A stretch of 59,689 bases of DNA from an uncultured Candidatus Saccharibacteria bacterium (GTDB lineage: Bacteria; Patescibacteriota; Minisyncoccia; Phycocordibacterales; Phycocordibacteraceae). Position numbers and translations under genes: made by a program. Positions 285 through 17,980 of this stretch are shown in pieces. How positions within the stretch are numbered: the first letter of the stretch is position 1; each line of letters opens with the position of its first letter. The notes below the pieces were generated by a model. That model did no database searches. It saw nothing but the letters and a program-made list of their open reading frames with translations, and was not told the DNA's origin. The stretch covers positions 1 to 59,689 of the forward strand of contig CAZJKG010000001.1 of the NCBI GenBank assembly GCA_964546795.1, given 5' to 3'.

Positions 285-291
285 AAGAACA

Positions 292-855: not shown

Positions 856-881
856 ATAAGAACTTTCTCTCCCTTTATCAG

Positions 882-914: not shown

Positions 915-955
915 ACATGTAGTCGATATTATTACTAATAACTAACAATAAACAG

Positions 956-1522: not shown

Positions 1523-1542
1523 AGTATTATAGTTTCTATAGT

Positions 1543-1566
1543 AAAAAGCCCCAGTGGGGCTTTTTA
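1543..1566 (+). terminator. rho-independent terminator
   Basis: AAAAGCCCC-AGT-GGGGCTTTTT hairpin with a T-run 20 nt after the stop at 1522. Confidence 0.7.
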
Positions 1567-1580
1567 CTATATACATTACA

Positions 1581-1613
1581 GATGCACCAAAATGCATCCT
1601 GTTTCCGTCTAAT
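1581..1613 (+). repeat. 33-nt conserved module, copy 2
   Basis: GATGCACCAAAATGCATCCTGTTTCCGTCTAAT, 30/33 identical to 882-914. It overlaps the first 11 codons of ORF 1582. Confidence 0.5.
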
Positions 1614-1989: not shown

Positions 1990-1995
1990 TCAGAT

Positions 1996-2481: not shown

Positions 2482-2483
2482 TT

Positions 2484-4271: not shown

Positions 4272-4272
4272 C

Positions 4273-4986: not shown

Positions 4987-6202
4987 CGATATCGCACACG
5001 AAACATACACCGCCCTTTCTGCGAATAAGGTTCGCTCGGGTCTTACGATACTCGGCATCGTGATCGGCATTTCTTCGGTTATCGCAATGGTCTCAATAGG
5101 TACCGGTGCATCAAATAGTATTTCTTCCTCAATTGAGTCACTCGGATCGAATCTCATCCAGGTGACTCCTGGCGCACAACGCACACAAGGGTTTGGCGTA
5201 AGCGCGGGTCGCGGGGGCGCAAAGACACTCACGAATGAGGACGCGGAAGCAATCGCAACTGAAATCGCAGATGTGCAGGCAGTGGACTCACAGGTTTCCG
5301 GGCGCTATCAGATCACTGCAAAAGGTACGAACACTAATACAAGCGTGACTGGCGTGACTAGCAATTATCCGCAGATTCGTAACCTCGAAGTGGAAGAAGG
5401 GGCGTTTATCTCCGATACACAAAATAATTCGGCGTCAAAAGTGGCGGTCATAGGGCCGACGACACGAGACGACCTCTTCGGGGAGGGTACAACAGGCGTT
5501 GTCGGCCAGTCGATCCGGATTAATAAACTCGAATTCAAAGTCATTGGCGTTACGAAAGCGAAAGGCGGCAGCGGATTCCAAAATCAGGATGATGTGATCT
5601 ACATCCCTGTCAAAAGTGCGCAGCGATATCTCTCCGGTGATCAGTATCTCACCACGATCGCAGTGCAAGCCTCCTCGCCAGATGCAATGGCGCAAGTACA
5701 AGCCGATATAACCACCCTGCTCTTAGATAGGCACCGCATTAGTGATGCGACAGCGGCTGATTTTAGTGTTCTCAATCAAAATGACATTCTCGGTGCTGCG
5801 ACAAGCGTCACAACAACGTTGACGTATCTCTTAGCAGCGATAGGCGGCATATCGCTTCTTGTCGGCGGTATCGGCATTATGAACATGATGCTCACGACAG
5901 TCACCGAGCGCACGAGAGAAATCGGCTTGCGGAAAGCAATCGGAGCGAAGAAGAAAGACATCTCGACGCAGTTTCTTGCTGAGGCTATCGCGCTTACCGT
6001 AATCGGTGGCGTTGTGGGGATTGCACTCGGCTGGCTCATTTCCTTTGTTGTGAATTTAACAGGTCTCGTGACAACCAGTGTGTCGCTCTCATCGGTTGTT
6101 ATTGCGTTCGGTGTATCGGCAGTAACAGGAATCGTATTCGGTTATTACCCCGCGCGAAAGGCGGCAGGCATGAACCCTATCGATGCCTTGCGCTATGAAT
6201 AG
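4976..6202 (+). CDS. ABC transporter permease (MacB/FtsX family)
   Basis: N-terminal TM, large extracytoplasmic domain, C-terminal FtsX-type TM block with TERTREIGLRKAIGA. ATG 4976 overlaps the ATPase stop. Confidence 0.9.
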   Translation: MKINDIAHETYTALSANKVRSGLTILGIVIGISSVIAMVSIGTGASNSISSSIESLGSNLIQVTPGAQRTQGFGVSAGRGGAKTLTNEDAEAIATEIADVQAVDSQVSGRYQITAKGTNTNTSVTGVTSNYPQIRNLEVEEGAFISDTQNNSASKVAVIGPTTRDDLFGEGTTGVVGQSIRINKLEFKVIGVTKAKGGSGFQNQDDVIYIPVKSAQRYLSGDQYLTTIAVQASSPDAMAQVQADITTLLLDRHRISDATAADFSVLNQNDILGAATSVTTTLTYLLAAIGGISLLVGGIGIMNMMLTTVTERTREIGLRKAIGAKKKDISTQFLAEAIALTVIGGVVGIALGWLISFVVNLTGLVTTSVSLSSVVIAFGVSAVTGIVFGYYPARKAAGMNPIDALRYE

Positions 6203-6241
6203 GTGAAGCAAAATTAATTAATAACTTAGTAATAAAGATAT

Positions 6242-6679
6242 ATGAATAAACAAATGATTATTGGAGGATTGGTCGCATTAGCAATCGTTGGTGGAGGTGC
6301 ATTTTACGGGGGTATGACTTACTCAAAATCTCAAGTACCTGCGCGAGGACAATTTATGGGAAACGGTCAATTCCCGGGAGGGGCAGGAGGAGGTGCGCGT
6401 GCAGGTATGAACGGAGGTTTTACTGCTGGTGAGATTATTTCCAAAGATGACTCGAGTATAACGATCAAGATGCAAGATGGTAGCACCAAAATTGTGCTCG
6501 TCAGCTCAAGCGCGCAAGTTATGAAATCAACTACAGGCTCGTTTAACGATCTTGCCGTCGGTACTCAAGTCACCGTCACCGGCTCCGCAAACAGCGATGG
6601 AAGCGTAACCGCACAATCCGTCCAAATTCGTCCAGCTGGATCAGCACCGCTTCGTGGTACGCCACCAACAGCACAATAG
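6242..6679 (+). CDS. membrane-anchored Gly-rich protein (DUF5666-like), paralogue-like of 1996-2481
   Basis: 145 aa. TM segment IIGGLVALAIVGGGAFYGG, Gly-rich GNGQFPGGAGGGARAGMNGG, C-terminal VGTQVTVTGSANSDGSVTAQSVQIRP. Confidence 0.7.
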   Translation: MNKQMIIGGLVALAIVGGGAFYGGMTYSKSQVPARGQFMGNGQFPGGAGGGARAGMNGGFTAGEIISKDDSSITIKMQDGSTKIVLVSSSAQVMKSTTGSFNDLAVGTQVTVTGSANSDGSVTAQSVQIRPAGSAPLRGTPPTAQ

Positions 6680-6725
6680 CTTTATACTGAGTTAATAAAT
6701 TTTTGCAAAGATAATTTCACGATGG

Positions 6726-7121
6726 TTACTCAGTAGTTTTTCCATCAAATTCATCAGTGGTGTCGGCTTCGCCCTCGGCTTTGGTTTTGTGAATTACGCT
6801 ATCTCGATGATGCGGTGGCATATAGAGGGTATAGAGCTTCATGGGGCCGGAATCGGAATTCATAATGTTATGTTTTGTCCCGGCAGGCACGATGATCACG
6901 CTACCATCGGCAAGGTCGTGAGAGATGTCGCTTAAGATTGCGATGCCTGTTCCTTTTTCCACGCGTAGGAACTGATCGACATTATGCACTTCTTCTCCGA
7001 TTTCTTCTCCAGCAAGGAGAGACATCAAAACAAGCTGGCTGTTTTTGTCGGTGTATAAAACCTTACGAAAATTATCATTTTCAAGTGATAGCTTTTCAAT
7101 GTTTGTGACGTATCCTTTCAT
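6726..7121 (-). CDS. cupin domain protein
   Basis: 131 aa. Cupin motifs GEEIGEEVH and VIIVPAGTKHNI. Confidence 0.8.
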   Translation of the reverse strand: MKGYVTNIEKLSLENDNFRKVLYTDKNSQLVLMSLLAGEEIGEEVHNVDQFLRVEKGTGIAILSDISHDLADGSVIIVPAGTKHNIMNSDSGPMKLYTLYMPPHHRDSVIHKTKAEGEADTTDEFDGKTTE

Positions 7122-7141
7122 AAATATATTTTTTATTAAGA

Positions 7142-7618
7142 TTAATTAAGCATCCAAATACTAAAATTCAAGTATCCGGCAAAACTTACCCAGAGAATAT
7201 ATGGCATAAGAAGCCATGCGGCCGGTTTAGAGATTTTCGCAAAGGCAATAATCGTGGCGAGAATGGCGAGCCAGAGGAATACGATCTCAATAAGCGCACC
7301 GCCCGGGCTGTGCAGACCAAAAAAGATAATTGACCAAAGGGTATTGAGCACTAGCTGTCCGAGAAATATGCCGAGAGCAATTTTTACATCCCTACGATCC
7401 AGTCCTTTCTTCCAGACAAGAAAGGCCGCGATGCCCATAAGCGCAAACAATGTCGTCCAGACCGGTCCGAACACCCACGCCGGGGGATTGATAGCAGGCT
7501 TCACGATCCCTGAGTACCAGCCGGCAATGGACGGCGTGGTAAACACTGAACTGATAATGCCAGCAAGTTCGGAGACTATGATGGCGATGATAAGTTTGAA
7601 GGCGTTATTAATTTTCAT
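7142..7618 (-). CDS. tspO: TspO/MBR family tryptophan-rich sensory protein
   Basis: 158 aa, five hydrophobic helices, Trp-rich signature WYSGIVKPAINPPAWVFGPVWTTLF. Confidence 0.85.
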   Translation of the reverse strand: MKINNAFKLIIAIIVSELAGIISSVFTTPSIAGWYSGIVKPAINPPAWVFGPVWTTLFALMGIAAFLVWKKGLDRRDVKIALGIFLGQLVLNTLWSIIFFGLHSPGGALIEIVFLWLAILATIIAFAKISKPAAWLLMPYILWVSFAGYLNFSIWMLN

Positions 7619-7779: not shown

Positions 7780-9093
7780 ATGCCACCAATCGCCAGCTCA
7801 ATACAAAAGCAGTTCAAAATATTAGAACCTCGTGAGGAGTGGTCTTTTAGAGATGCAGGTCGTTCTCAGACCACCGCCTTCTCTCATGACTACCACCGTT
7901 ACCCAGCAAAATTTATTCCACAGATCGTCCGCAAACTGATCGAAGATTACGCGCCAAGCACTGAGCAAATAGTCTGTGATCCATTCGGTGGATGTGGGAC
8001 GACTCTGGTGGAAGCAAAACTGCTAGGACATCCCAGCATCGGTTTTGATATCAACCCTGTTGCGAAATTGATAACCCAAACAAAGACTACCGCGATCAAG
8101 CCACGCACCCTTACAAATCACAAGCAGAAATTTTTAGAGTACTACGATATGGCACCTAAGATTTCCTACGAGCACCATCCTCGCATTACCTACTGGTTCG
8201 ACGAGGAAACAATCACCGAATTAGACAGAATTTATTTTGCGGTAAAGAAAATAGAGAATCATAATGTCCGCAGGTTTTTCCTCTGTGCCTTTTCACACAA
8301 CCTTAAAAACTGCTCGCGCTGGCTGATGAAAAGCATCAAGCCAACCATCGACAAGGATAAAATCATACCCGTCCCAAAACAGTCTTTCCTCCGGCATCTT
8401 GATTCAATGATTAGAAAGAACGAGTTGTTCTATACGAAGCTGGCTGAATCCGGACGCACTAAGGTCTCCGCTAAGATGTATCGCCGAGATTCCACTAAGA
8501 CATTCTCGATGGAGTCTGAATCGGTAGATTTAATCGTTACGTCTCCACCCTACGTCACCTCATATGAATACGCTGATCTTCACCAGCTGACGCTTCTATG
8601 GTTCGGGGATGATCCTAAGCATTTCAAAAAATGGCATCATTTTAGTAATGGATTTATAGACTTTCGTCGAACTTTTATCGGCACAAGTTCAAAAGCTAAA
8701 AAAACTGGTGACTTCAACAGCACCATAGGAAAAAAGATTGTCGACGATCTTATGCTAGTTGAACGTCCACTCGCTATCGATGTCGCAAATTATTTTCTGG
8801 ATATGCAAAAAGTATTCGCCGAAACTCACCGAATCCTTAAGAAGGGTGGAAAGGCCTGCGTGATTATTGGCAATACCAATCTTCGAGGCGTAGAAATTCA
8901 AAACGCGCAGGTTGCGGCAGAACAGATGCAGGCCGCTGGTTTTACCAAAGTAGATTTTATAAAACGCGAAATCCCTAATAAGATGATTACTCCGTGGCGC
9001 GACACTGAGAGCGGCAAATTTACAGGCATGGACAATCCGTCAAAAACTCGTGCTTACGAATTTGAGTATGTAGTTGTGATGGAAAAGAATTAA
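7780..9093 (+). CDS. DNA methyltransferase, N4/N6 (amino-MTase) family, motif I before motif IV
   Basis: 437 aa. AdoMet-binding VCDPFGGCGTTLVEAKLLG near the N-terminus and catalytic LIVTSPPYVTSYEY about 190 aa later. An SPPY tetrapeptide is more typical of N4-cytosine enzymes (inference). Confidence 0.85.
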   Translation: MPPIASSIQKQFKILEPREEWSFRDAGRSQTTAFSHDYHRYPAKFIPQIVRKLIEDYAPSTEQIVCDPFGGCGTTLVEAKLLGHPSIGFDINPVAKLITQTKTTAIKPRTLTNHKQKFLEYYDMAPKISYEHHPRITYWFDEETITELDRIYFAVKKIENHNVRRFFLCAFSHNLKNCSRWLMKSIKPTIDKDKIIPVPKQSFLRHLDSMIRKNELFYTKLAESGRTKVSAKMYRRDSTKTFSMESESVDLIVTSPPYVTSYEYADLHQLTLLWFGDDPKHFKKWHHFSNGFIDFRRTFIGTSSKAKKTGDFNSTIGKKIVDDLMLVERPLAIDVANYFLDMQKVFAETHRILKKGGKACVIIGNTNLRGVEIQNAQVAAEQMQAAGFTKVDFIKREIPNKMITPWRDTESGKFTGMDNPSKTRAYEFEYVVVMEKN

Positions 9094-11612
9094 ACAATTT
9101 TCCTTATCATGCCAGGTAGGGCTTTCCCAATAGCACGCATAGCAGAACCGAGAATCAGGTCCTTATCAGGATCGTTTTTTAATTCAAAGTAAAGATACAG
9201 AGAATAAATATAGGTGTCAGCAATATATTTATTTTCCGCACTTCCAACCTTATCAAGGCCCACCATCTTTTTTAGGTCCTTCAAGGGTTTGGAATCCACA
9301 TTTAGATTAACTATCAATCCTTGCGTTCGAGAGGAGTCAACACTGGCCACGCTATGCTCATTCCATCCATGGGTTGGCCAATCTCTTTCGTAAACAGGGT
9401 TTCTTTTTGGTTCGTTAAGCTTCGAACTTTCTTCGGGAGATATGACCTCGATTGGTATAGAGATATCAAACTTATGATCACCGTCATTGTTAATCAGTAT
9501 TTTGGCATCTGGTATTTTTCCTAATTTTTCAGTGGCGGCATAAAAGGTGACTTCAAGAATGCCGTCATTTAAACGAAATTTCTTTAGCCGTAAATCGTCA
9601 CGATCTTCAAACTCAAATGACCCAGGATCAGCTTCCCGGGTAAAGTAGTCATTTGCAACATCCGTAGCAAAACTGAATTTTTTATTTGTTTTTGACGGAA
9701 TTCTTAACGTTTCCTTTAGTGGCTTAAAGTATGTTGGGAAATATGAACCTTCGTAAGGAGGCGTCTCGATTATTTTGAAAGTAACCGTTTGTTCAAATTT
9801 CTTTACTTTCTCGGAGTCTAGCAGAGTGAAAGTAATTTTATCTTGATCACCAACTTTGGCATTTTCTCTACAATCTACACGGAGGGAGACAATGCCCTTA
9901 TTCATACTGCGAACAACGACATCGAGGAGGGTTGAATCTTTCGACCAATCAATGTAATAGCGGTTCTTTTTTCTGGTAAAGAGTTTGTCTTCCGCGTCGG
10001 TCTTAAAAGATATAAGGGTATAGGAAGATTTATCGACCTCCTTGGGCTGGCTTCCTACAAGTTCAAACATCTTTGGATGTTCTTCGCCGACATACTTCTC
10101 TTTATCCTCGTCTTTCCCTTTCGGAATCTTAATTTCTTCACCGATACCGAGTAGCTCTTTTAGTTCAGGATCGTCAACAATTGCTCTCTCTATAAGCTTA
10201 TCAAGTTCCTTATTATCCTCATTAGAACTTGCCAAGCTTTTTTCTTGATATTCCCTATCCCATTTCTCGAAAATCTCATTTTCAAAGAATTTTTTTAGAC
10301 GATCTCTCAGGGTGTGATAATCTTCAGTGCGAGCTAATTCCTCTCTTCCAGAATGAAAGATGTTTGCTAGTTCGACTGGAATATCCGACATATCAATATA
10401 ACAGAGCAGATAGGGAGCTAGAGCAGGAAGTTGACAATCTGTTCGCACAAAAGATTCATTCTCATATCCTAGTGCCAAGCCATTTTCCAGATAGAATATT
10501 TTCTGATTTAGTTCTTTATAAGATTTTACTCCTTCGGCATCGCTTATATGCCTCAAGCGAATGCATCGAATATTACGAGTTCCTATCTCACCCAAACCCG
10601 CTGGAAGTGTGATGTCGTCATTGATAATGTTTTTATTATCCTCAATTCGTCTAAGCAAACCCGCAATTGTATATTTTGTATCTCCCTTCCACCCTCTCTT
10701 GTCTTGCAAAAAGATAGGGAGTGGAGGTTTCTGTAATTTCTGATCAAAATCAAAAGCTAGTGAATGGAATCCGAAAGTTATGTTTGATGGATTATCCAGA
10801 TAATAGTCGTACAGACGAATGAGACAGCCATCGATAAAATCAATTTCTAAACCATCAATTTTTATTGGATTATCATAAGGAAAAGAAAAAATGCCCTCAG
10901 TTATGTCGGTACAGTATTCGTAATAGGGAACCCTATTTTTATAACTACGTCTCACCAAAGTGAATCCCCAATCGTTCTTCTCATTTTTATCAGCAATACT
11001 TTCTGCGCGTCGGGATAGAACGAGTTGGTAGCATTTAGATTTGCCACCGGCGAAGCGTATGGCTGCTGATCCGCCTTGATGGTACTTACCAAAGACAAAA
11101 TTAATCTTCTCTTTTATACTCTCACTCAATCCAACGATAGTATCTTGGATTCTATTAGGAGTTTGCCCTTCTCCACGATCAATAATAGTAATTGTCGGCC
11201 TCTTTTTATCACCCTCAGCTAAAACGACTAAGTGTTGCCTTGCCCACGCGCTTCGGTTTTTATTTATCTCCTCCTCACTCCCGAAATATTTTGTAATTGC
11301 TTCAGATAGAGTTTTTGGTAATCGTGGATCACCACTACTAGGATGCACACCTTCCACTTCGTAGCATCGTCTCATTAACAATGCGTCCGTAGAATTTGTT
11401 ATTTTTTCAACCAAAGCATTACTTGAGCTTTTCATCTGCCCCTCAATCTGCGGAGCATTAAGTTCACGCCCACCATACGGCACCCATTTAGAGTTTTCGG
11501 GTCCAAAAAATGCTTCACTTTCGATCAAAGAGGCTATCTCTTCTGAAGAAACAGTACCGAGTAGTTTAAAAAATATTTCTTTGTTCAGCTTTTGATTCAT
11601 ATTTATTTTCAT
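9090..11612 (-). CDS. GHKL-superfamily (MORC/HATPase_c_3-like) ATPase, large uncharacterised C-terminal region
   Basis: 840 aa. N-box ALVEKITNSTDALL, G1 box ITIIDRGEGQT, G2-like GKYHQGGSAAIRF in the first 200 aa or so. I recognised no domain in the remaining 600 aa or so. Its stop codon overlaps the MTase stop (TTAA at 9090-9093). Confidence 0.75.
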   Translation of the reverse strand: MKINMNQKLNKEIFFKLLGTVSSEEIASLIESEAFFGPENSKWVPYGGRELNAPQIEGQMKSSSNALVEKITNSTDALLMRRCYEVEGVHPSSGDPRLPKTLSEAITKYFGSEEEINKNRSAWARQHLVVLAEGDKKRPTITIIDRGEGQTPNRIQDTIVGLSESIKEKINFVFGKYHQGGSAAIRFAGGKSKCYQLVLSRRAESIADKNEKNDWGFTLVRRSYKNRVPYYEYCTDITEGIFSFPYDNPIKIDGLEIDFIDGCLIRLYDYYLDNPSNITFGFHSLAFDFDQKLQKPPLPIFLQDKRGWKGDTKYTIAGLLRRIEDNKNIINDDITLPAGLGEIGTRNIRCIRLRHISDAEGVKSYKELNQKIFYLENGLALGYENESFVRTDCQLPALAPYLLCYIDMSDIPVELANIFHSGREELARTEDYHTLRDRLKKFFENEIFEKWDREYQEKSLASSNEDNKELDKLIERAIVDDPELKELLGIGEEIKIPKGKDEDKEKYVGEEHPKMFELVGSQPKEVDKSSYTLISFKTDAEDKLFTRKKNRYYIDWSKDSTLLDVVVRSMNKGIVSLRVDCRENAKVGDQDKITFTLLDSEKVKKFEQTVTFKIIETPPYEGSYFPTYFKPLKETLRIPSKTNKKFSFATDVANDYFTREADPGSFEFEDRDDLRLKKFRLNDGILEVTFYAATEKLGKIPDAKILINNDGDHKFDISIPIEVISPEESSKLNEPKRNPVYERDWPTHGWNEHSVASVDSSRTQGLIVNLNVDSKPLKDLKKMVGLDKVGSAENKYIADTYIYSLYLYFELKNDPDKDLILGSAMRAIGKALPGMIRKIV

Positions 11613-11637
11613 ATTTATGTTCTTGGAGAGGAGCTAT

Positions 11638-11868
11638 TTATAAGCGGAACTCTCGGTTTTTGGGGAAGTGGAATTTTGCCTTAACTTCCTTTAATTTACG
11701 TTCAATTTCATAAAATATTTTATCCACGTCCTCCTCGGTATATTGATAAGCTTGTCTATTTGCACAATTTCCAAGCACCTTAAGCCTTCGGAGAACAGTG
11801 TTCGTGCGAAGCGTGGCCAACCTTTTGAATCTTTCTTGAGGGGTCTCTTTTTTATTTGGCTTTTCCAT
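11638..11868 (-). CDS. small basic hypothetical protein, first gene of the GHKL operon
   Basis: 76-aa ORF ending 25 nt upstream of the GHKL ATPase start, same strand. Minus-strand TATAAT (11874-11879) lies 5 nt upstream of its ATG. Confidence 0.6.
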   Translation of the reverse strand: MEKPNKKETPQERFKRLATLRTNTVLRRLKVLGNCANRQAYQYTEEDVDKIFYEIERKLKEVKAKFHFPKNREFRL

Positions 11869-11937: not shown

Positions 11938-11949
11938 ATGAAAAGATAA
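11938..11949 (+). other. displaced original 5' end of mnmA at attL (ATG AAA AGA then element-derived TAA)
   Basis: Joining 11938-11946 to 16997 onward gives ATG AAA AGA AAG GTC TTC GTC GGG..., which translates to MKRKVFVGLSGGVDS, a canonical MnmA N-terminus. Confidence 0.6.
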
Positions 11950-12068
11950 GACGAGTCAATAAGATACACACCCATCCATCTATCGTAAGATAGGCAAAAG
12001 TGATAGAATAAAATCAACAGTTAAATAAGCGCCTCACGAGGCAACCTGAAAGGTATTCCGAGTCCAAG

Positions 12069-12119
12069 GGCTCGCGATCTACGTCACTTTTGTGATTACG
12101 GATCGCGAGCCTTTTGTTT
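12069..12119 (+). terminator. strong hairpin plus T-run just inside attL (insulating terminator or attenuator)
   Basis: GGCTCGCGATC-21 nt-GATCGCGAGCC followed by TTTTGTTT. No plus-strand ORF lies upstream of it inside the element. Confidence 0.45.
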
Positions 12120-12134
12120 AACTGGACAATAAAT

Positions 12135-12704
12135 ATGAAAAATAAGTATGAGAAATTGAGCTTTATTAAAGCTCTCATAAGCCAGCTGGATAATTTGTCC
12201 CGTGTACCGGCCAAGGTTTATTTTAATTATACTTCCGCAAGTTTTGATATTAATCAGCAAAAGGAAGTTTTAGCGGAGCTTAAAAAGAAAAAGTTGATAT
12301 CGAGCTACCGATGGAACGAGGACGATTTTATAATCACCAAGCCAAGCAGGAGAGGTCTTTTTGAATACTGGCTGAAGCTACATATAGAACCGGTCCCGGA
12401 ACAAAAGCCGATTGACACGAGAATAATTTTTAACGAGAAAACCGGCGACATCGTCCGGGCCGGAAAGGTGTGTCCGATCCCTATCAGCACAAACCAATAT
12501 TTTCTTTGCAAGGCTTTATTCGCTGTTCCTTTCGGCACGCCGGTAACGGAGATCGACATCATGGAAGCGGCCGATCTGGCGAGAAGGGAACCCAAGCGAA
12601 GCATACGCGACGCCAAAACGGCGGTGAATAAGAAAATAAAGGCCAAATTCGGCATAGACGAGTTTATATGCTGGAAAAACCAGCGGGCTTGGATCAGAAA
12701 ATAA
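12135..12704 (+). CDS. hypothetical protein with possible C-terminal winged-helix DNA-binding region
   Basis: 189 aa from ATG 12135 (MKNKYEKL...). The C-terminal segment TEIDIMEAADLARREPKRSIRDAKTAVNKKIK resembles wHTH regulators (weak). Confidence 0.6.
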   Translation: MKNKYEKLSFIKALISQLDNLSRVPAKVYFNYTSASFDINQQKEVLAELKKKKLISSYRWNEDDFIITKPSRRGLFEYWLKLHIEPVPEQKPIDTRIIFNEKTGDIVRAGKVCPIPISTNQYFLCKALFAVPFGTPVTEIDIMEAADLARREPKRSIRDAKTAVNKKIKAKFGIDEFICWKNQRAWIRK

Positions 12705-12748
12705 ACTGCGAGTCCGGGTGACTCGAAGGTGAATCGCGGGCGCGGGAG

Positions 12749-12777
12749 CAGACTGGAAGAAAACAGTCTGTTTTTTT
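12749..12777 (+). terminator. rho-independent terminator
   Basis: CAGACTG-GAAGAAAA-CAGTCTG followed by TTTTTTT. Confidence 0.6.
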
Positions 12778-12781
12778 ATTT

Positions 12782-12958
12782 ATGAGAATAAAAAGGTCGC
12801 CACAATTCAAAATCGAAACGATTTACCGGGAAGTGCCGGACAAGAAGGATCGTATCCGGCAACTTTGGGATTTATTGATATCCCTGCCGGAGCAGGAAGA
12901 TAAGAAAATAGAAAATAAGAATCCTTATGAAAATCAAAAAATCACAGCCAACGTATAA
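12782..12958 (+). CDS. possible 58-aa ORF (below the ORF-track cutoff)
   Basis: ATG 12782 to TAA 12956-12958 (MRIKRSPQFKIETIYREVPDKKDRIRQLWDLL...). It fills the gap between the terminator and the next gene and overlaps the 12927 start by 32 nt. Confidence 0.3.
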   Translation: MRIKRSPQFKIETIYREVPDKKDRIRQLWDLLISLPEQEDKKIENKNPYENQKITANV

Positions 12959-13181
12959 CACCACCGACTTCTATTTGAGTTGTTTTCTTCTAGCAAGAGG
13001 GATACAGCTCATAGGACTCAATCAAACCGATGATCCGGGTCGTCGGTCTTTTGTGTTTGTGGAATCGGAAATGCGATCCGTGCTCATGAACGAGTACAAC
13101 TTTGACGGAGAAGCGGAAATCAACGTGAGAGATTTTATATCGGCCATACGCAAACTCAAGACTCTCTTATACGAAAAATAA
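12927..13181 (+). CDS. DUF5659-like small protein
   Basis: 84 aa. TTDFYLSCFLLARGIQLIGL...RRSFVFVES matches my recollection of the DUF5659 pattern common in phage and CPR elements. Confidence 0.55.
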   Translation: MKIKKSQPTYNTTDFYLSCFLLARGIQLIGLNQTDDPGRRSFVFVESEMRSVLMNEYNFDGEAEINVRDFISAIRKLKTLLYEK

Positions 13182-13182
13182 T

Positions 13183-13953
13183 ATGGCCAACATCCCAAAC
13201 ACAACTCAAACGCCTAACATCATTTTCAACGGCTTGATGAAAGAGATGTCTGACACCGAGCTTCGTGTCGTGCTTATCGTTACCCGGGCCACACTCGGCT
13301 GGGTTTTGGATAGGGAGAAGGGAATGCGAAAAGAGGAGGATTGGATTTCACACTATCAGCTGAAGCAAAAGACCGGCCGTGAGTCCGGCGCCATATCTAA
13401 AGCCATTGACCGGTGTATCCAGAAAGGATGGATAGAAGCCAGAGACCACGGTGGCGAACTGTTGGATACCAAAGACAAGCGACGTGGCAAAAATATCTAC
13501 TACCGCTTGGGTCCAGCAATCCTTTTGAGAACATCTTCGGAAAGCGAAGATGTATATGTAACCTCTTCCAAAAGCGAACTTCATAAACCGAATTTCGCAA
13601 AGCAAAGTATACAAAAGGTAATCCCTACAAAACTAACTATACAAAAAACTATATTGCCGACTCTGGAGGATATCGAGATATCCATGACCTTAAAAGAGTT
13701 TGTTGATTGGTGCAGTAAGAGTAGTCAAAAGCACATTCGGATCATCGGTAACTGGGCAGACACCATAGAGCCAGATTTTAAGACCAAACAGCAGTGGGAG
13801 GCATTTCTGAAAAGAAATCTAAGAGCGGCCAAGAATCTTGAGCCATTCGAGGATAAACGACTGATCGAAGGATTCAAGAAAATCCAGGAAGCGGCAAAAC
13901 AGGGTTGGCTCAAGAAATACACACTGGAGACTCTCTTTAAATTCATCGTATGA
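13183..13953 (+). CDS. replication-initiator-like protein (phage replication protein O N-terminal-like wHTH)
   Basis: 256 aa. TQTPNIIFNGLMKEMSDTELRVVLIVTRATLGWVLDRE...ISHYQLKQKTGRESGAISKAIDRCIQKGWI follows the Rep_O N-terminal pattern. Confidence 0.6.
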   Translation: MANIPNTTQTPNIIFNGLMKEMSDTELRVVLIVTRATLGWVLDREKGMRKEEDWISHYQLKQKTGRESGAISKAIDRCIQKGWIEARDHGGELLDTKDKRRGKNIYYRLGPAILLRTSSESEDVYVTSSKSELHKPNFAKQSIQKVIPTKLTIQKTILPTLEDIEISMTLKEFVDWCSKSSQKHIRIIGNWADTIEPDFKTKQQWEAFLKRNLRAAKNLEPFEDKRLIEGFKKIQEAAKQGWLKKYTLETLFKFIV

Positions 13954-14438
13954 AATACAACCAACCGGCGGAAGCCACAAAAACCGAATACGATCTGAAT
14001 AATCCGGAGGAAAAGAAAACTATCAGGGACTTTGAAGTCCTGCTTGAGAATTTGAAAACCGTACCGCTCAAATATCCGCTCTGGGTTTATGGAGAACCGA
14101 AAGAGGTGATCCCTGCGTTCAAATTCGGCAAGCGAGAATTTCCGGAAAGTATAAACCCAAGACGTATTCGCAATGACATCGTCGGTCTCACCGATGCTGG
14201 TATCGTTCAACACCTGCTCGAGGTCAAAGCCATATCCCGTCGCCATGTGAAAAAAGAACATCCGAATTATGGCTGGGCGGTGGGTCCCGATCTGAAAGCA
14301 TACGAGGATTTTTATAAGAAACAGCGAGCCCTCGAGGAACTCAAAGATAAACGTGTGTACGCCGAGCAAAAAGACGAGGAATCTTTTGACGCGCTTATCG
14401 AAGGTCGTGAGGGGCTAATCAAATCAATGAAGCCATGA
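13950..14438 (+). CDS. hypothetical protein (element)
   Basis: 162-aa ORF, ATGA overlap with the upstream gene, same-strand operon. Confidence 0.6.
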   Translation: MKYNQPAEATKTEYDLNNPEEKKTIRDFEVLLENLKTVPLKYPLWVYGEPKEVIPAFKFGKREFPESINPRRIRNDIVGLTDAGIVQHLLEVKAISRRHVKKEHPNYGWAVGPDLKAYEDFYKKQRALEELKDKRVYAEQKDEESFDALIEGREGLIKSMKP

Positions 14439-14632
14439 ATAAATACAGCAAGGAAATGGAGAACGCCATAAATGTGCTCAAAAGGAATCCGGTCAAAGGG
14501 GCGGAAATAGTATTGTCCCTACTGAAAAGTAAAGATGACATGGTAAAGCTTGAAGCGGCCGCATTCATTCTTGATCGGGTCATGGGGAAGCCAAAGGCGA
14601 TGCCGAACAGGAGTAGAAGAAACTCTACTTAA
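14435..14632 (+). CDS. hypothetical protein (element)
   Basis: 65-aa ORF, ATGA overlap with the upstream gene. Confidence 0.5.
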   Translation: MNKYSKEMENAINVLKRNPVKGAEIVLSLLKSKDDMVKLEAAAFILDRVMGKPKAMPNRSRRNST

Positions 14633-14643
14633 CACAACTTTTT

Positions 14644-15219
14644 ATGGCCAAACTGAAACACATAACCAAATACCACGAACGAGCGCTCGAACTGAAATAT
14701 AAAGGGTATTCCTACCAAAATATCGCCGAGGACATCAATAGGAAATTTGAAAAAAGTAGAAAAGCCAAATTCACCGAGCAAAGCGTAAAAGATTGGTTCA
14801 AACAATCCGGAACATTGCAGGAAACCTATAGGCTCTACGCGCAGGAACTGGATATCATCCATCAAGAAACCGTGGACATAGTCCGGAAAGCCGGTGTGCG
14901 TGTTCGTGAGCAGAATTTTCGCTTGGCCAATGAGATGCTCGTAGCTCTTATGGGAAGTCAGAATGACGGCGTGAAGCTCGCGGCCATCAAGGAACTTTTA
15001 GATCGTGTAGAGGGTCATCCTAAAGACCGCATTGAGCTTAGCAAGATCAACTTTAAAGATATGTCACCGGGCGATCGATGGGAGTTTATTCCTTACGAGA
15101 TGCAACTTGCTCTGGCACGCAATCAATACCCCGATGCCAAGGCCGCGATCATAAAAAAGTGGCTTGCGGACGGAGAACCAGCTGTGGGCAACTCGAGCTT
15201 AGCGGATGAGCAAAATTAG
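14644..15219 (+). CDS. hypothetical HTH-like protein (element)
   Basis: 191 aa. N-terminal ERALELKYKGYSYQNIAEDINRKF resembles an HTH. It ends inside the 5' region of the recombinase ORF. Confidence 0.6.
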   Translation: MAKLKHITKYHERALELKYKGYSYQNIAEDINRKFEKSRKAKFTEQSVKDWFKQSGTLQETYRLYAQELDIIHQETVDIVRKAGVRVREQNFRLANEMLVALMGSQNDGVKLAAIKELLDRVEGHPKDRIELSKINFKDMSPGDRWEFIPYEMQLALARNQYPDAKAAIIKKWLADGEPAVGNSSLADEQN

Positions 15220-15259
15220 TATAGGGTGCTGTGTTGAGAACGAAGATGAGCATAAAAAT

Positions 15260-17980
15260 ATGAAATCAGTCCTTTACGCCCGGGTTTCAACCGAGGAACA
15301 AAAAAGCAATCAAACCATCGACACTCAAATTCATGGCATCGGTGGAATGTTGCAATATGCCATCAATCACAAATTGCCGGTCCCGGACGAGACAATGATG
15401 TTCATTGATGATGGCTTCAGCGGAGCGACACTGATACGTCCGGCTCTCACTGCTTTCCGTGAGTATTTGAAAACGCATGACGATGTCAGCTATTTTCTGG
15501 TTTATGACGCCGACCGAATCGGCCGAGACACGTATAACCAACTGATTATCCTTGAGGAGCTCAAAAAGAAAAACGTCACCATCCATTTTAAGACCGGCGA
15601 GCTCGGATCAACCCCGAACGATAAACTGCTATTCACCATCTTAAGCGCGTTCAGTGAATTCGAGAGAGCAAAAATAATGGAGCGAACCCAGCGCGGAATG
15701 AAAAGAAGAATAGAGTCCGGCAAATTTAATGGCGGACGTCCGCTTTTCGGATATCGATACAATTATGCGATCGGCAAACACGAGCTTGACGAAACCGAAG
15801 CTAAGGTAGTGAAGATGATTTATGACTGGTACACCGAGGACAAACTCAACATCAGACAAATCCAAGCCAAACTATTTGAGCTTAAAATCCCCACTAAATA
15901 TGACGCTCTGAAAAATAACGAAAAGAATCGCAAGATGAAAGGATTGAAAAAGTTTCCGCTGGGCTGGTGGAGCGAAGTGACAATACGAAACGTTCTGGCC
16001 AACGAAGCGTACACCGGTCGATGGTACTGCTGTAAAAATCAGACCATCAAATTGGACGTGGCGAATCTTCGGACGGGGAAGCCTAAAGTCAGACAAATCA
16101 AAAGAGCCAAAGAGGAATGGTTTCCGATAGAGATACCAAGGATCGTCTCCGATGAACAGCATAAGAAAGGACTCCTGCAAGCTAGAAAGAATTTGATGTT
16201 CGCCAAACGATGTACCAAGCAAACATATCTACTGCAAGGACTCATCCGATGCGGTAAAGACCATCTCAAGTATCGCGGTCATCAGGAAAAAAGTGGCGTC
16301 ATTTATTACTACTGCAAAAGCCGGATGAATAATAATCCGGTAGAGAATTGCCATAGTCCGTATCTGCGAGCGGATCAGATCGAGCCAATAGTTTGGAACA
16401 CGGTACAATCGATCTTGAAAAATCCGGAAGATGTTTTTAACACGTTCCGTGACGAATCCATACTGAACGAGGAACGAGCCAAAAGTATCGAAGGCCGATT
16501 AGATTATATATCCGGCGCGGTCAAAAAACTTGAGGTGGCCAAGAAACGAATCACCGAGGCGTTTAAAGCCGAAGTGATGACGCTTCCGGAATTGAGGAAA
16601 GAGAAAACTGATATCGAACTTAGCGAGGAGAAGCTTATTTCCGAGCGTGATGCTTTGATGATGAAGCTCAACGTTCAGCATGACGTGAGCGCAAAGATCG
16701 ATCTGTTTAAAGAAACCTGCTATAAGTTTTTGAGCAAAATAAACGATCCGAAAATAGTGACAGAACGTCTGAAAAAAGATATAATCAAACTCTTAATTGA
16801 TGAAGTGGTGATCGAAGGCGAGAGCGTCAAGATTTTTGCCACCATCCCTCTGCCGAATAAGATTCACGAACGGGAAATGGACAAAACTGACATTCCCGGT
16901 ACTTTTAATGCTGGGGCCACATTAGGCCCGGTGAACGAAACGAATATGACCAGAATTTGGAATAAACACAAACAAACAAATACCCCTCTTAAAAGAAAGG
17001 TCTTCGTCGGGTTGTCGGGAGGAGTGGACTCCGCGGTGTCGGCGGCACTTTTGAAGCAGGCGGGTGCATACGTAACGGGCGTATTCATCAAGGGTTGGTA
17101 TCCGCCCGGGATGCCCTGCTCATGGGCAGAGGAGCGCCGCGACGCGATGCGGGTTGCGGCGCGGCTTCAGATACCGTTCCGTACGCTTGACGCGAGCGTT
17201 GAATACAAAAAGGGAGTCATTGATTATCTCTTGGCCGAATATCGCGCCGGCCGCACGCCGAATCCTGATGTCATGTGCAATCGTGAAGTGAAGTTCGGTG
17301 CGTTCTCGCGCTATGCCATGGCACAGGGAGCCGACGCCATCGCGATGGGACATTATCGCTCGGGAGAGAATGATCAGAGTTATTTCCTCTGGGCGGTGCC
17401 CAAAGACATTCTGGCCGGAACGCTGTTTCCCGTGGGTTCCTATGAAAAGAAAAAAGTGCGCGAACTTGCAAAGCATTTTGATCTGCCGGTTGCGCAAAAA
17501 AAGGACAGCCAGGGTATTTGCTTTCTCGGCAACATTTCAGTTGAAGAATTCCTGCGCAGCGAATTTGATGTTCTGTCCGGCCGTGCACTTGACGAGCAGG
17601 GACGCGTCCTTGGCCAGCACGGAAGCGCTCTACTCTCCACTATCGGCGAGCGCGTTGCGCTCAAGGGTGCTCTTGAGAAAGGTCCGTGGTTCGTGCTCGC
17701 AAAAGATGTCGCCAAGAATGAGCTTATCGTGGGGAAGACGCGGCTTCCGCATTCCGCTCCCTCGCACCAAGAGATACCATTCACCGATGCTAATTGGTTT
17801 GACGTACCGGAGAATGTTACGGAAGCGCACTATCGCTATCGAGGTCCGCATGTACCGGGAAGCATCAGGGGAGATCGTTTCGTGAGTTCGGAACCGCTTC
17901 CGGATATTCCCGCTCCCGGCCAATCGCTTGTTTTCTATCATTCTGGCGAACTTGTCGGTGGTGGTATTATTGCTTCATGA
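15260..17980 (+). CDS. chimeric open reading frame: large serine recombinase (about 579 aa) running without a stop into MnmA
   Basis: Resolvase catalytic motif VLYARVSTEEQ, recombinase domain (GGRPLFGYRY), Cys-rich zinc-ribbon segment, coiled coil. There is no in-frame stop before attR, so the frame continues into KRKVFVGLSGGVDSAV (MnmA P-loop). Confidence 0.8.
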   Translation: MKSVLYARVSTEEQKSNQTIDTQIHGIGGMLQYAINHKLPVPDETMMFIDDGFSGATLIRPALTAFREYLKTHDDVSYFLVYDADRIGRDTYNQLIILEELKKKNVTIHFKTGELGSTPNDKLLFTILSAFSEFERAKIMERTQRGMKRRIESGKFNGGRPLFGYRYNYAIGKHELDETEAKVVKMIYDWYTEDKLNIRQIQAKLFELKIPTKYDALKNNEKNRKMKGLKKFPLGWWSEVTIRNVLANEAYTGRWYCCKNQTIKLDVANLRTGKPKVRQIKRAKEEWFPIEIPRIVSDEQHKKGLLQARKNLMFAKRCTKQTYLLQGLIRCGKDHLKYRGHQEKSGVIYYYCKSRMNNNPVENCHSPYLRADQIEPIVWNTVQSILKNPEDVFNTFRDESILNEERAKSIEGRLDYISGAVKKLEVAKKRITEAFKAEVMTLPELRKEKTDIELSEEKLISERDALMMKLNVQHDVSAKIDLFKETCYKFLSKINDPKIVTERLKKDIIKLLIDEVVIEGESVKIFATIPLPNKIHEREMDKTDIPGTFNAGATLGPVNETNMTRIWNKHKQTNTPLKRKVFVGLSGGVDSAVSAALLKQAGAYVTGVFIKGWYPPGMPCSWAEERRDAMRVAARLQIPFRTLDASVEYKKGVIDYLLAEYRAGRTPNPDVMCNREVKFGAFSRYAMAQGADAIAMGHYRSGENDQSYFLWAVPKDILAGTLFPVGSYEKKKVRELAKHFDLPVAQKKDSQGICFLGNISVEEFLRSEFDVLSGRALDEQGRVLGQHGSALLSTIGERVALKGALEKGPWFVLAKDVAKNELIVGKTRLPHSAPSHQEIPFTDANWFDVPENVTEAHYRYRGPHVPGSIRGDRFVSSEPLPDIPAPGQSLVFYHSGELVGGGIIAS
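16946..17980 (+). CDS. mnmA: tRNA-specific 2-thiouridylase MnmA (host gene, N-terminus now supplied by the element)
   Basis: PP-loop SGGVDSAV, then NPDVMCN, GHY and CFLG motifs. Internal ATG 16946 (MTRIWNKHKQTNTPLKRKVFVGLSGG) is the first candidate start in the integrated state. A sharp AT-to-GC shift occurs at about 16,995. Confidence 0.8.
   Translation: MTRIWNKHKQTNTPLKRKVFVGLSGGVDSAVSAALLKQAGAYVTGVFIKGWYPPGMPCSWAEERRDAMRVAARLQIPFRTLDASVEYKKGVIDYLLAEYRAGRTPNPDVMCNREVKFGAFSRYAMAQGADAIAMGHYRSGENDQSYFLWAVPKDILAGTLFPVGSYEKKKVRELAKHFDLPVAQKKDSQGICFLGNISVEEFLRSEFDVLSGRALDEQGRVLGQHGSALLSTIGERVALKGALEKGPWFVLAKDVAKNELIVGKTRLPHSAPSHQEIPFTDANWFDVPENVTEAHYRYRGPHVPGSIRGDRFVSSEPLPDIPAPGQSLVFYHSGELVGGGIIAS

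What the first reader, a model, noticed from the sequence alone, without database searches (positions are those of the whole stretch)
11938..16996. 5.05-kb serine-recombinase element whose attL/attR reconstruct both an intact mnmA start and a recombinase stop codon
attL reads ...TAAATG AAAAGA TAAGACGAG... (core 11941-11946). attR reads ...CCCTCTT AAAAGA AAGGTCTTCGTCGGG... (core 16991-16996).

Recombining the left flank of attL with the right flank of attR gives ATG AAA AGA AAG GTC TTC GTC GGG TTG TCG GGA GGA. This translates to MKRKVFVGLSGG, a textbook MnmA N-terminus in the correct frame.

The reciprocal product (attP) gives the recombinase ...NTPLKR followed by TAA, a 579-aa large serine recombinase. 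It also has partially inverted arms around the core: TCTT-AAAAGA-TAAGA, and further out AAGAGGGGTATTT versus AAGACGAGTCAAT.

Base composition switches sharply at attR. The cargo is a minimal replicon-like set (wHTH protein, DUF5659-like, RepO-like initiator, HTH protein). The element therefore looks like an integrative plasmid or satellite rather than a prophage.
Basis: partly seen in the sequence, partly recalled or inferred. Interest (0 to 1): 0.7.

Follow-up and report, generated by a model that had tools for sequence, protein, structure and literature searches.

The report
17-kb serine-recombinase island inside mnmA
A mobile DNA island of about 17 kb (not 5 kb) sits in the start of the tRNA-modification gene mnmA of a Patescibacteria (CPR) bacterium, and its recombinase gene reads in frame into mnmA; the same element family has entered the same codon in dozens of distantly related hosts.

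Summary
The quoted sequences are present. ORF 15206-17980 is a large serine recombinase (LSR) fused in frame to MnmA, and GC content rises at the junction.

Both proposed boundaries are wrong. The window's own contig, extended leftward, holds the missing mnmA start ATGAACGTACGGGGAAGGAAGATATTTGT. It is joined at a GT (window 15-16) to a conserved element end.

AAGGTCTTCGT is invariant across hosts and belongs to the element.

The element spans 17-17007 (16,991 bp). Joining its flanks gives MNVRGRKIFVGLSGG. This matches insert-free relatives and aligns without gaps to an empty site.

The ATGAAAAGATAA at 11938 lies inside the element, between variable cargo and a conserved 5-kb module.

attP lies inside the LSR gene, whose last 31 codons sit at the left end (17-113).

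In 30 fusion proteins the LSR halves have median 91% identity and the MnmA halves 48%. That points to recent horizontal spread. Cargo is mostly restriction-modification and other defence genes. LSR-less derivatives that keep both ends are common.

The parts
1..16 (+). Host B arm. This is the end of the severed 5' fragment of mnmA (…G GAA GGA AGA TAT TTG T). Its ATG lies 12 bases before the window start. GT at 15-16 is the crossover dinucleotide of attL.
   Evidence: L035 is the window's contig extended leftward. It reads ATGAACGTACGGGGAAGGAAGATATTTGT|AGCAAC…. It is colinear with the empty sites L005 and L006.
17..54 (+). P' arm of the element, AGCAACATACACGAATGAGGGGCTTAAGTTTCAAATGG. The GAGGGG at 33-38 mirrors the CCCCTC of the P arm.
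   Evidence: The arm is nearly invariant next to 47 different host arms in 68 metagenome loci, plus L014 and L016.
17..113 (+). Split-off 3' end of the recombinase gene: 31 codons plus TAG at 111-113. In the integrated state it is fused to the first 10 codons of mnmA instead.
   Evidence: The frame is conserved as a 32-39 residue peptide, V-ATYTNEGLKFQMVLGPLKFEPSKRGR..ATI*, with in-frame indels. Variation by codon position is 2:4:24. The circular-form LSR would be 614 aa.
114..255 (+). Conserved non-coding left-end region. It contains a promoter-like TTGAAC-17-TAACTT overlapped by the palindrome TTTGCTTAACTTAAGCAAA.
   Evidence: It is conserved in 44 loci, and conservation stops at about 255. 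There is no covariation supporting an RNA structure.
292..7618 (.). Cargo block 1. It holds an ECF sigma factor (292-855), small membrane or anti-sigma-like ORFs, a MacA-like adaptor (2484-4271), an ABC ATPase (4273-4986), a MacB/FtsX permease (4976-6202), a cupin (6726-7121, minus strand) and TspO (7142-7618, minus strand).
   Evidence: Pfam calls on L035. TspO is 79-86% identical at nucleotide level to copies inside other elements, L013, L017 and L034.
7780..11868 (.). Cargo block 2, a restriction-modification-like unit. It holds a type II N6/N4 methyltransferase (7780-9093, plus strand), an 840-aa ORF with no known family (9090-11612, minus strand) and a 76-aa ORF (11638-11868, minus strand).
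   Evidence: PADLOC MTase_II hit at 6.5e-51. No hit for the 840-aa ORF. Different R-M systems occupy the same place in L001, L002 and L004. The type I R-M cargo is shared by L004, L017 and L021.
11938..11949 (+). It is an internal intergenic sequence, not an attachment site.
   Evidence: It lies within the element. No counterpart exists in L001, L002 or L004. The 9-mer occurs 6 times in the window. It overlaps a minus-strand promoter-like site at 11959-11931.
11996..15259 (+). Conserved module. It holds a hairpin/terminator region (12030-12119), a 189-aa ORF (12135-12704), a DUF5659 protein (12927-13181), a RepO-like initiator (13183-13953), a 162-aa ORF (13950-14438), a 65-aa ORF (14435-14632) and a 191-aa small-terminase-like protein (14644-15219).
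   Evidence: Homology to L001, L011, L013, L015 and others starts at 11996-12004. Family hits from Pfam and PHROGs. The 191-aa model's best matches are small terminases, all below significance.
15260..17007 (+). Body of the large serine recombinase gene. It starts MKSVLYARVS with the catalytic Ser, has no stop codon, and ends …NTPLKRKVFV at the crossover.
   Evidence: Pfam Resolvase 4.5e-29, Recombinase 1.7e-12, Zn_ribbon_recom 7e-12. phrog_95 integrase 2.2e-78. Homologues start at MKSVLYARVS.
16757..16785 (+). Promoter-like site GTGACA-17-TATAAT embedded in the recombinase 3' region and facing mnmA.
   Evidence: 11 of 12 consensus matches. Both hexamers are kept in 16 of 18 variants while neighbouring wobble positions vary.
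16946..16948 (+). In-frame ATG 20 codons before the junction. It is the candidate replacement start codon for mnmA.
   Evidence: It is retained in most decayed remnants, down to a remnant that begins only 11 nt upstream of it.
16980..17007 (+). P arm ATACCCCTCTTAAAAGAAAGGTCTTCGT. CCCCTC is at 16983-16988, and the crossover GT of attR is at 17006-17007.
   Evidence: It is nearly invariant next to 31 different host arms. Conservation flips exactly after the GT.
17008..17980 (+). Host mnmA from codon 11 onward (G L S G G V D S …). The B' arm is the DNA encoding the PP-loop motif.
   Evidence: Pfam tRNA_Me_trans 2.2e-58. 82% nucleotide identity to the empty-site relative L005 across the joined flanks.

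Best explanation
Window 17-17007 is a single 16,991-bp integrative element. A large serine recombinase (LSR) inserted it into codon 10 of mnmA by exchange at a GT dinucleotide.

attP lies inside the LSR gene. In the circular form the LSR would be a 614-aa protein whose last 31 residues are encoded at the element's left end. Integration cuts off that tail and joins the LSR body in frame to mnmA.

The element's P arm encodes …KRKVFV. This mimics the host's …GRKIFV, so the MnmA fold stays complete from its first strand.

The native mnmA promoter and start codon end up 17 kb away. mnmA is therefore probably expressed from inside the element, either as the LSR-MnmA fusion or, more likely, from an embedded promoter-like site (16757-16785) and the in-frame ATG at 16946.

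The target is the DNA around the universally conserved PP-loop motif. This would explain the very wide host range within Patescibacteria.

Between the conserved left end (17-255) and a conserved module plus LSR (11996-17007), the element carries exchangeable cargo. Here the cargo is an ECF-sigma/MacAB-like efflux cluster, TspO, and a type II methyltransferase with a probable nuclease partner.

Shown by comparison: the ends, the crossover, the empty site, the horizontal spread and the cargo variability.

Inferred: the route of mnmA expression, the function of the tail, replication after excision (RepO-like gene), and the means of cell-to-cell transfer.
For: 1. The window's contig extended left (L035) has the gene order YchF-DUF5671-LeuRS-sigma70-DUF8128-YceG. 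This matches insert-free L006, where mnmA follows YceG directly.
2. L035 9697-9725 is an mnmA start, ATGAACGTACGGGGAAGGAAGATATTTGT, joined to AGCAACATACACG….
3. The joined flanks align without a gap to the empty site of L005. Identity is 82% over 387 nt, running through the junction.
4. The rebuilt N-terminus MNVRGRKIFVGLSGG matches the MNVRGKK/MDVRGKK-IFVGLSGG of the 119 closest insert-free MnmA proteins.
5. There are 47 distinct host arms at attL and 31 at attR. Conservation flips exactly at the GT in both.
6. CCCCTC and GAGGGG lie 17 and 16 nt either side of the GT.
7. The tail ORF is under purifying selection.
8. In 30 fusion proteins the LSR parts are 82-99% identical (median 91%). The MnmA parts are 35-76% identical (median 48%), and the two measures are uncorrelated, r = -0.03.
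9. Cargo is shared between elements in different hosts: type I R-M in L004, L017 and L021, and TspO in the window, L013, L017 and L034.
10. No second P or P' arm occurs inside the window's element.
Against: - No clean excised circle was found. The only P-P' junctions seen are in a 2-kb contig with a decayed LSR remnant (L050) and as degenerate internal junctions of tandem arrays.
- No unfused full-length LSR appeared among the best 120 hits of the 5.8-billion-protein search. Nothing turned up in IMG/VR.
- No empty site from the same species was recovered. The nearest relative has 86% MnmA identity.
- No recombination directionality factor was identified.
- There is no clear Shine-Dalgarno sequence before the ATG at 16946.
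- Cargo GC is heterogeneous (0.37-0.51). The island could therefore have grown in steps.
Confidence: 0.85

Rival explanations
1. One reading: a 5.05-kb element bounded by AAAAGA cores at 11941-11946 and 16991-16996. Excision would restore MKRKVFVGLSGG and give the recombinase a TAA stop.
For: The strings exist. The site lies only about 50 bp left of where the conserved module begins at 11996.
Against: - AAGGTCTTCGT, to the right of the proposed core, is element DNA.
- The real mnmA 5' fragment and P' arm are at window 1-54.
- No equivalent site exists in L001, L002 or L004, whose LSRs are about 90-99% identical.
- Close insert-free MnmA proteins do not start MKRK.
- The DNA left of 11938 is cargo shared with other elements.
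- The 9-mer occurs 6 times in the window.
Confidence: 0.02
2. A composite island with the same outer ends. An older cassette (17 to about 11950) and a later core element (about 11950-17007) were inserted successively at the mnmA site. Their internal P-P' junction has since decayed near 11938-11996.
For: Tandem arrays with internal P-P'-like junctions exist in L047, L071, L099 and L050. GC differs between blocks. LSR-less cassettes that keep both ends are common.
Against: No P-like or P'-like remnant occurs at 11900-12000 or anywhere else inside the element. Other loci show the same cargo/module boundary without an internal att site.
Confidence: 0.1
3. A domesticated, no longer mobile fusion. 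The LSR-MnmA gene is now a fixed chromosomal gene and the island is inert.
For: No circular form or unfused LSR was found in assemblies. Many genomes keep only remnants fused to mnmA.
Against: - LSR parts are 82-99% identical across hosts whose MnmA parts are 35-76% identical, with no correlation.
- The window's P and P' arms match the consensus with 0 mismatches.
- The LSR ORF is intact with all its domains.
Confidence: 0.05

Closest known systems
Phage and element large serine integrases that insert into protein-coding genes (Listeria A118/comK, Bacillus SPbeta SprA/spsM, phiC31, Bxb1)
   Same: - The same three-domain enzyme plus a coiled-coil region.
- Short asymmetric att sites and exchange at a 2-bp central dinucleotide, with no long homology.
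- Insertion inside a gene.
   Different: - At most 28% identity to any phage integrase in INPHARED.
- attP lies inside the recombinase ORF.
- Insertion keeps the target gene readable by an in-frame fusion instead of interrupting it.
- There are no virion genes.
SCCmec-type cassettes (Ccr serine recombinases, insertion at the end of rlmH/orfX in staphylococci); comparison from general knowledge
   Same: - An LSR-driven cassette at the end of a conserved RNA-modification gene, which stays functional.
- Highly variable cargo.
- Tandem composites and recombinase-less remnants that keep the end repeats.
- A replication-type gene next to the recombinase.
   Different: - The target is the 5' end rather than the 3' end, so a promoter and start codon must be replaced.
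- The host phylum is different.
- Orthology to Ccr was not tested.
Phage satellites with a serine integrase (Vibrio PLE; PICI-like islands)
   Same: - Small integrated island with an LSR, a replication initiator and a possible small-terminase-like protein.
- No recombination directionality factor of its own is evident. In PLE the helper phage supplies it (abstract of PMC9638900).
   Different: The terminase resemblance is below significance. No helper phage is known, there are no capsid-remodelling genes, and there is no hit in IMG/VR.
SSV1-type (fusellovirus) tyrosine integrases, whose attP lies within the int gene (general knowledge)
   Same: Integration splits the integrase gene, so the full-length enzyme can be made only from the circular form.
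   Different: That family uses tyrosine recombinase chemistry, has archaeal hosts and targets tRNA genes. Here only the last 31 codons are removed, and the body is fused to a host protein.

Membership tests
Large serine recombinase (serine integrase) | N-terminal resolvase-type catalytic domain with a serine nucleophile | tested here: met
   PF00239 at 4.5e-29. Motif MKSVLYARVSTEEQ. PDB hits to gamma-delta resolvase and the TP901-1 integrase catalytic domain.
Large serine recombinase (serine integrase) | Recombinase domain plus a zinc-ribbon domain with a coiled-coil insert | tested here: met
   PF07508 at 1.7e-12 and PF13408 at 7e-12. The coiled-coil-like stretch after the zinc ribbon was judged by eye only.
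Large serine recombinase (serine integrase) | Short attP/attB sites exchanged at a 2-bp central dinucleotide, with imperfect dyad symmetry in attP | tested here: met
   Conservation flips at GT across 47 attL and 31 attR host arms. CCCCTC and GAGGGG lie 17 and 16 nt from the GT. This is comparative evidence, not biochemical.
Large serine recombinase (serine integrase) | Catalyses attP x attB recombination, with excision needing a directionality factor | not testable with these tools
No directionality factor was identified.
   The DNA left of 11938 is element cargo. AAGGTCTTCGT is element DNA. Native relatives start MDVRGKK or MNVRGKK.
Prophage | Capsid, tail, large terminase or portal genes | tested here: not met
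   No such Pfam or PHROG hits in the conserved module, the 840-aa ORF or the 76-aa ORF. Precomputed Pfam calls on the L035 locus show none in the rest of the cargo. No relatives in IMG/VR.
Phage satellite (PICI/PLE-like) | Packaging-redirecting gene such as a small terminase, and dependence on a helper phage | tested here: inconclusive
   The 191-aa protein hits phrog_2538 (TerS) at E = 1.4e-3. Its best fold matches are G20c and P74-26 small terminases at E = 0.2-1, and BFVD TerS entries at E = 0.03-0.1. Model pLDDT is 73. Helper dependence cannot be tested.
Integrative plasmid / replicative island | A replication initiator of its own | tested here: inconclusive
   The RepO-like N-terminal wHTH domain hits phrog_678 at 1.6e-10. 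The Pfam Phage_rep_O score is below its cut-off, 20.7 against 28.7 bits. No origin was identified, and some LSR-bearing relatives lack the module (L016).
Conjugative or mobilisable element (ICE/IME) | Relaxase, coupling protein or type IV secretion genes | tested here: not met
   None appears among the Pfam or NCBIfam results for the element's ORFs. oriT was not searched for.

The most novel reading that the evidence does not exclude
Integration acts as a built-in state switch.

The circular element makes a 614-aa recombinase with a conserved 31-39 residue tail. The integrated element can make only a tail-less recombinase tethered to MnmA. In the integrated state the native mnmA promoter instead drives a 41-aa peptide (the first 10 mnmA codons plus the tail) and the element's left end. 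The two recombinase forms could differ in direction or activity, which would give directionality control without a classical directionality factor.

The element also becomes the sole supplier of promoter and start codon for a tRNA-thiolation gene. Deletions that remove its right end would then be counter-selected. This would explain why remnants nearly always keep the last 45-120 bp.
Probability: 0.25. Interest if true: 0.85.

Novelty: new variant of a known kind. Interest (0 to 1): 0.62.

Why it matters
- **Few elements are known in this group.** Patescibacteria (CPR) have almost no characterised mobile elements and no genetic tools. This is a widespread, apparently recently active serine-integrase family in that group.
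- **The sites are defined.** attP, attB and the crossover dinucleotide are all placed. The target is conserved in every host because it encodes the PP-loop of MnmA. That makes the family a natural candidate for site-specific integration vectors in these organisms.
- **The architecture is unusual for a serine integrase.** attP lies inside the recombinase ORF. The target gene is kept readable by an in-frame fusion, and the element supplies a replacement 5' end.
- **The cargo matters ecologically.** Full elements and recombinase-less derivatives carry mainly restriction-modification, Abi, toxin-antitoxin and Fic genes. The mnmA start therefore appears to be a defence-island docking site in this phylum.

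Tried and rejected
No match within 8 of 29 mismatches.
- **Other ATGAAAAGA copies.** Looked for a copy at the left edge of the conserved module in other loci. Only in-gene chance matches were found.
- **Alternative attL at 7700-7780.** Considered a site next to TspO (…GGATAAAGAGGTATAATG). Rejected, because it rebuilds a stop codon and TspO itself is cargo.
- **Native mnmA 5' fragment inside the window.** Searched with a regex and a fuzzy match. None was found, because the fragment straddles the window start.
- **Inverted copy of the P arm.** This search only found attR's own partial dyad.
- **Viral contigs.** IMG/VR scans with the LSR and with the P' arm gave no relatives, only chance methyltransferase matches.
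- **Excised form.** Looked for an excised circle or an unfused LSR. None was found among the best 120 hits, and L050 is a decayed junction.
- **RNA families and structure.** Rfam on 1-17500 gave nothing. RNAalifold on the conserved left-end region showed no covariation.
- **The 840-aa ORF.** No hit in Pfam, PHROGs, PADLOC, NCBIfam or PDB sequences.
- **Literature.** Searches for mnmA plus serine recombinase, and for CPR or Patescibacteria plus serine recombinase, found no description of this family.
- **Failed script.** One ViennaRNA script crashed and gave nothing.

Full report
**1. The observation**

ATG AAAAGA TAA is at 11938-11949, and …CCCTCTT AAAAGA AAGGTCTTCGTCGGG… runs from 16984, with AAAAGA at 16991-16996.

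ORF 15206-17980 (924 aa) carries Resolvase, Recombinase and Zn_ribbon_recom domains, followed in the same frame by the three MnmA domains. It also hits phrog_95 integrase at 2.2e-78. GC rises from about 0.44 to about 0.55 at 17000. So a large serine recombinase (LSR) fused to mnmA is real.

Two points spoke against the proposed left end from the start. GC is low all the way from base 1 to 17000, not only from 11938. ATGAAAAGA also occurs six times in the window, including twice more on the same strand nearby.

**2. Relatives show a family, and cast doubt on attL**

A protein search with the LSR part returned about 35 clusters at 83-99% identity. All full-length ones are fused to MnmA (915-958 aa). 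They come from many Patescibacteria lineages, including Ryan-, Zambryski-, Taylor-, Azam- and Doudnabacteria. MnmA proteins carrying only a C-terminal piece of the LSR also appeared. The next-best recombinases are only about 35% identical.

In three fetched loci the conserved 5-kb gene set is preceded by a different restriction-modification system each time. Homology to the window starts at about 11996, not at 11947.

A genome scan added 27 loci. The window's TspO gene (7142-7618) is 79-86% identical at nucleotide level to genes lying inside other copies of the element. Window 15-253 also matches a stretch 6 kb left of the LSR in L016. Type I R-M cargo is shared by L004, L017 and L021 in different hosts. 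The DNA left of 11938 is therefore element cargo.

**3. The right junction**

The 28-mer ATACCCCTCTTAAAAGAAAGGTCTTCGT is almost invariant across about 30 loci. Host sequence diverges at wobble positions immediately after …TTCGT.

Insert-free relatives read …AAGAACATATTCGTA… or …AAGAAGATATTCATA… at the same place. The crossover is at or next to the GT at 17006-17007.

The closest 119 insert-free MnmA proteins begin MDVRGKK or MNVRGKK followed by IFVGLSGG, not MKRKVFVGLSGG.

**4. The left junction**

The ECF sigma factor encoded at window 292-855 retrieved the window's own contig with 10 kb more on the left. This is L035, and window coordinate = L035 coordinate - 9709.

Its gene order is YchF, DUF5671, LeuRS, sigma-70, DUF8128, YceG. 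This matches insert-free L006, where mnmA follows YceG directly.

After YceG and a 111-aa gene, L035 reads ATG AAC GTA CGG GGA AGG AAG ATA TTT GT|A GCA ACA TAC ACG AAT GAG GGG…. The window begins 12 bases after that ATG. The GT is at window 15-16 and the element arm begins at 17.

Joining this flank to the sequence after 17007 gives MNVRGRKIFVGLSGG. The joined DNA aligns without a gap through the junction to the empty site of L005, the closest relative, at 82% over 387 nt.

The element is therefore 17-17007, or 16,991 bp.

**5. Generality of the ends**

The left arm also occurs in L016 and L014, each time directly after a GT. A metagenome scan with 24 bases of this arm returned 68 loci.

Their left flanks are 47 different mnmA starts, for example ATGACTAAAAAGCCGAAGGTTTTTGT and ATGAAGGATATACAAGGAAAGAAAATATTTGT. 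All are joined at GT to AGC[AC]ACATACACGAATGAGGGG.

- In attL, conservation is low to the left of the GT and near-total to the right.
- In attR the pattern is reversed.
- CCCCTC (16983-16988) and GAGGGG (33-38) lie 17 and 16 nt from the GT. This is the imperfect dyad expected of an attP.
- GT is the only dinucleotide shared between flanking mismatches: TTT|GT|A in attL and TTC|GT|C in attR.

**6. attP lies inside the recombinase gene**

Across the rebuilt attP the LSR frame continues …NTPLKRKVFV-ATYTNEGLKFQMVLGPLKFEPSKRGRPTATI* with a stop at window 111-113. That gives a 614-aa protein.

In 48 distinct left ends this tail is conserved as a peptide of 32-39 residues, with in-frame length variants. 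Minor-allele counts at codon positions 1, 2 and 3 are 2, 4 and 24. The tail is therefore translated and under selection.

Integration removes the tail and fuses the LSR body to MnmA. The severed 10-codon mnmA start becomes fused to the tail, giving a 41-aa ORF behind the native mnmA promoter.

**7. Horizontal spread**

In 30 full-length fusion proteins the LSR parts are 82-99% identical (median 91%). The MnmA parts are 35-76% identical (median 48%). The two measures are uncorrelated, r = -0.03, and 88 pairs combine at least 95% LSR identity with under 60% MnmA identity.

This is the signature of a recently spreading element that always lands at the same codon. The B' arm is the DNA encoding G-[LM]-S-G-G-V-D-S, the PP-loop. 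That gives a plausible reason for the broad host range.

**8. How mnmA may stay expressed (inferred)**

The element's …KRKVFV replaces the host's …GRKIFV, so the MnmA domain is complete. About 50 low-complexity residues separate it from the end of the recombinase fold.

A promoter-like site, GTGACA-17-TATAAT, lies at 16757-16785. Its hexamers are kept in 16 of 18 sequence variants while adjacent wobble positions vary.

An in-frame ATG at 16946 lies 20 codons before the junction. It is retained in most decayed remnants, including one that begins only 11 nt upstream of it. I saw no good Shine-Dalgarno sequence. This step is an inference.

**9. Anatomy and cargo**

| Region | Content |
|---|---|
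| 17-255 | Conserved left end: tail ORF, then a non-coding block with a promoter-like site and the palindrome TTTGCTTAACTTAAGCAAA; no RNA covariation |
| 292-7618 | ECF sigma, anti-sigma-like ORFs, MacA/MacB-like efflux, cupin, TspO |
| 7780-11868 | Type II methyltransferase (PADLOC 6.5e-51), an 840-aa ORF with no known family, a 76-aa ORF |
| 11996-15259 | Conserved module: hairpin/terminator, 189-aa ORF, DUF5659, RepO-like initiator (phrog_678 at 1.6e-10), 162-, 65- and 191-aa ORFs |
| 15260-17007 | Recombinase body |

The 191-aa family is confined to these elements. An AlphaFold model (pLDDT 73) has an HTH followed by long helices. Its best matches in PDB and BFVD are small terminases, all below significance.

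The element has no virion, relaxase or secretion genes.

**10. Derivatives**

Loci that hold both ends span 1.6-17 kb. The small ones keep about 250 bp of the left end and 44-131 bp of the right end, but have no LSR. By inspection of the translated ORFs, they carry AAA-ATPase, Fic, AbiEi/Eii, HsdS, Dam and RadC-type genes; none of these names was checked against a family library.

Internal P-P'-like junctions in L047, L071 and L099, and the junction in L050, indicate tandem arrays. I found no such internal junction in the window.

**11. Comparison with known systems**

The enzyme meets the sequence criteria of a large serine recombinase, and the att sites behave comparatively as expected. It is at most 28% identical to any phage integrase in INPHARED.

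Functionally the closest analogues are listed below. The first and third rest on general knowledge.

- **SCCmec-type cassettes.** These are LSR-driven, sit at the end of a conserved RNA-modification gene, carry variable cargo, and form composites and remnants.
- **LSR-bearing satellites such as PLE.** In PLE the helper phage supplies the directionality factor, according to the abstract of PMC9638900.
- **SSV1-type integrases.** These are the only case I know of where attP lies inside the integrase gene, but they are tyrosine recombinases.

Searches of the held literature found no description of an mnmA-targeting serine recombinase element in CPR bacteria.

**12. Verdict**

The fusion and the target gene are right. 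The left end, the core, the size, the rebuilt N-terminus and the stop-codon claim are refuted.

What is there is a 17-kb member of a widespread, recently spreading LSR element family of Patescibacteria. Its architecture is unusual: attP lies within the recombinase ORF, the recombinase is fused in frame to mnmA, and the element supplies a replacement 5' end.

Still missing are an excised form, a same-species empty site, a directionality factor and the means of transfer.

Noticed in passing
window 114-255 (and the same region in 44 loci): About 140 nt of strongly conserved non-coding DNA follows the tail ORF. It ends in a promoter-like TTGAAC-17-TAACTT overlapped by the palindrome TTTGCTTAACTTAAGCAAA, which may be an operator. 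Most relatives also have a terminator hairpin (GACCGCCCGAAAGGCGGTTTTT) right after the tail stop codon. That hairpin is deleted in the window's lineage.
   Followed up: partly
window 9090-11612 (-): An 840-aa ORF converges on a type II N6/N4 methyltransferase gene. It has no hit in Pfam, PHROGs, PADLOC, NCBIfam or PDB sequences. It is a candidate new restriction endonuclease or defence protein.
   Followed up: partly
window 12030-12119 (+): A hairpin region, GCGCCTCACGAGGC followed by GGGCTCGCGATC…GATCGCGAGCC-TTTTGTTT, marks the start of the conserved module. It is 76-90% conserved in L001, L004, L011, L013, L014, L015 and L017. It looks like a terminator insulating the module from the cargo.
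   Followed up: partly
L041, L045, L047, L061, L088, L089, L100, L101: These are recombinase-less cassettes of 1.6-5.3 kb. They keep about 250 bp of the left end and 44-131 bp of the right end, and carry defence or toxin-antitoxin-type genes. They might be mobilised in trans by a resident LSR.
   Followed up: partly
L047 ~3259, L071 ~11971, L099 ~13678, L050 1170: Internal junctions join a decayed P arm to a P' arm. They point to tandem arrays, which implies either insertion into an occupied site or integration of dimers. Neither is expected for canonical serine integrases.
   Followed up: partly
L045 (right-end remnant, about 100 nt before its attR): A roughly 45-nt hairpin-forming insert (CCCCGTTAGAG…CTCTAACGGGG) sits inside the LSR 3' remnant, between the retained ATG and the P arm.
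   Followed up: no
L016 (element 3498-9488): This 6-kb relative lacks the RepO module. Its LSR reading frame is interrupted (and the record has a run of N). Its cargo includes an ORF with a YADD motif that looks like a group II intron reverse-transcriptase fragment, and a 613-aa ORF.
   Followed up: no
P0263 (relative of window 14644-15219): One member of the 191-aa family is fused to a CHC2 primase-type zinc finger (PF01807). This hints at a DNA-replication role rather than a packaging role.
   Followed up: no
window 35094-36408 (-): A second low-GC patch (0.38 against about 0.53) holds a 358-aa and an 81-aa ORF in tandem. It may be a small separately acquired two-gene island.
   Followed up: no
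L036 (Logan SRR8863434 contig, 5865 bp): A contig from another sequencing run carries an identical ECF sigma protein and a gene order matching the window's cargo. It starts about 10 bases inside the P' arm, at window position about 26. A contig break at the att site fits alternative junctions existing in that population.
   Followed up: no
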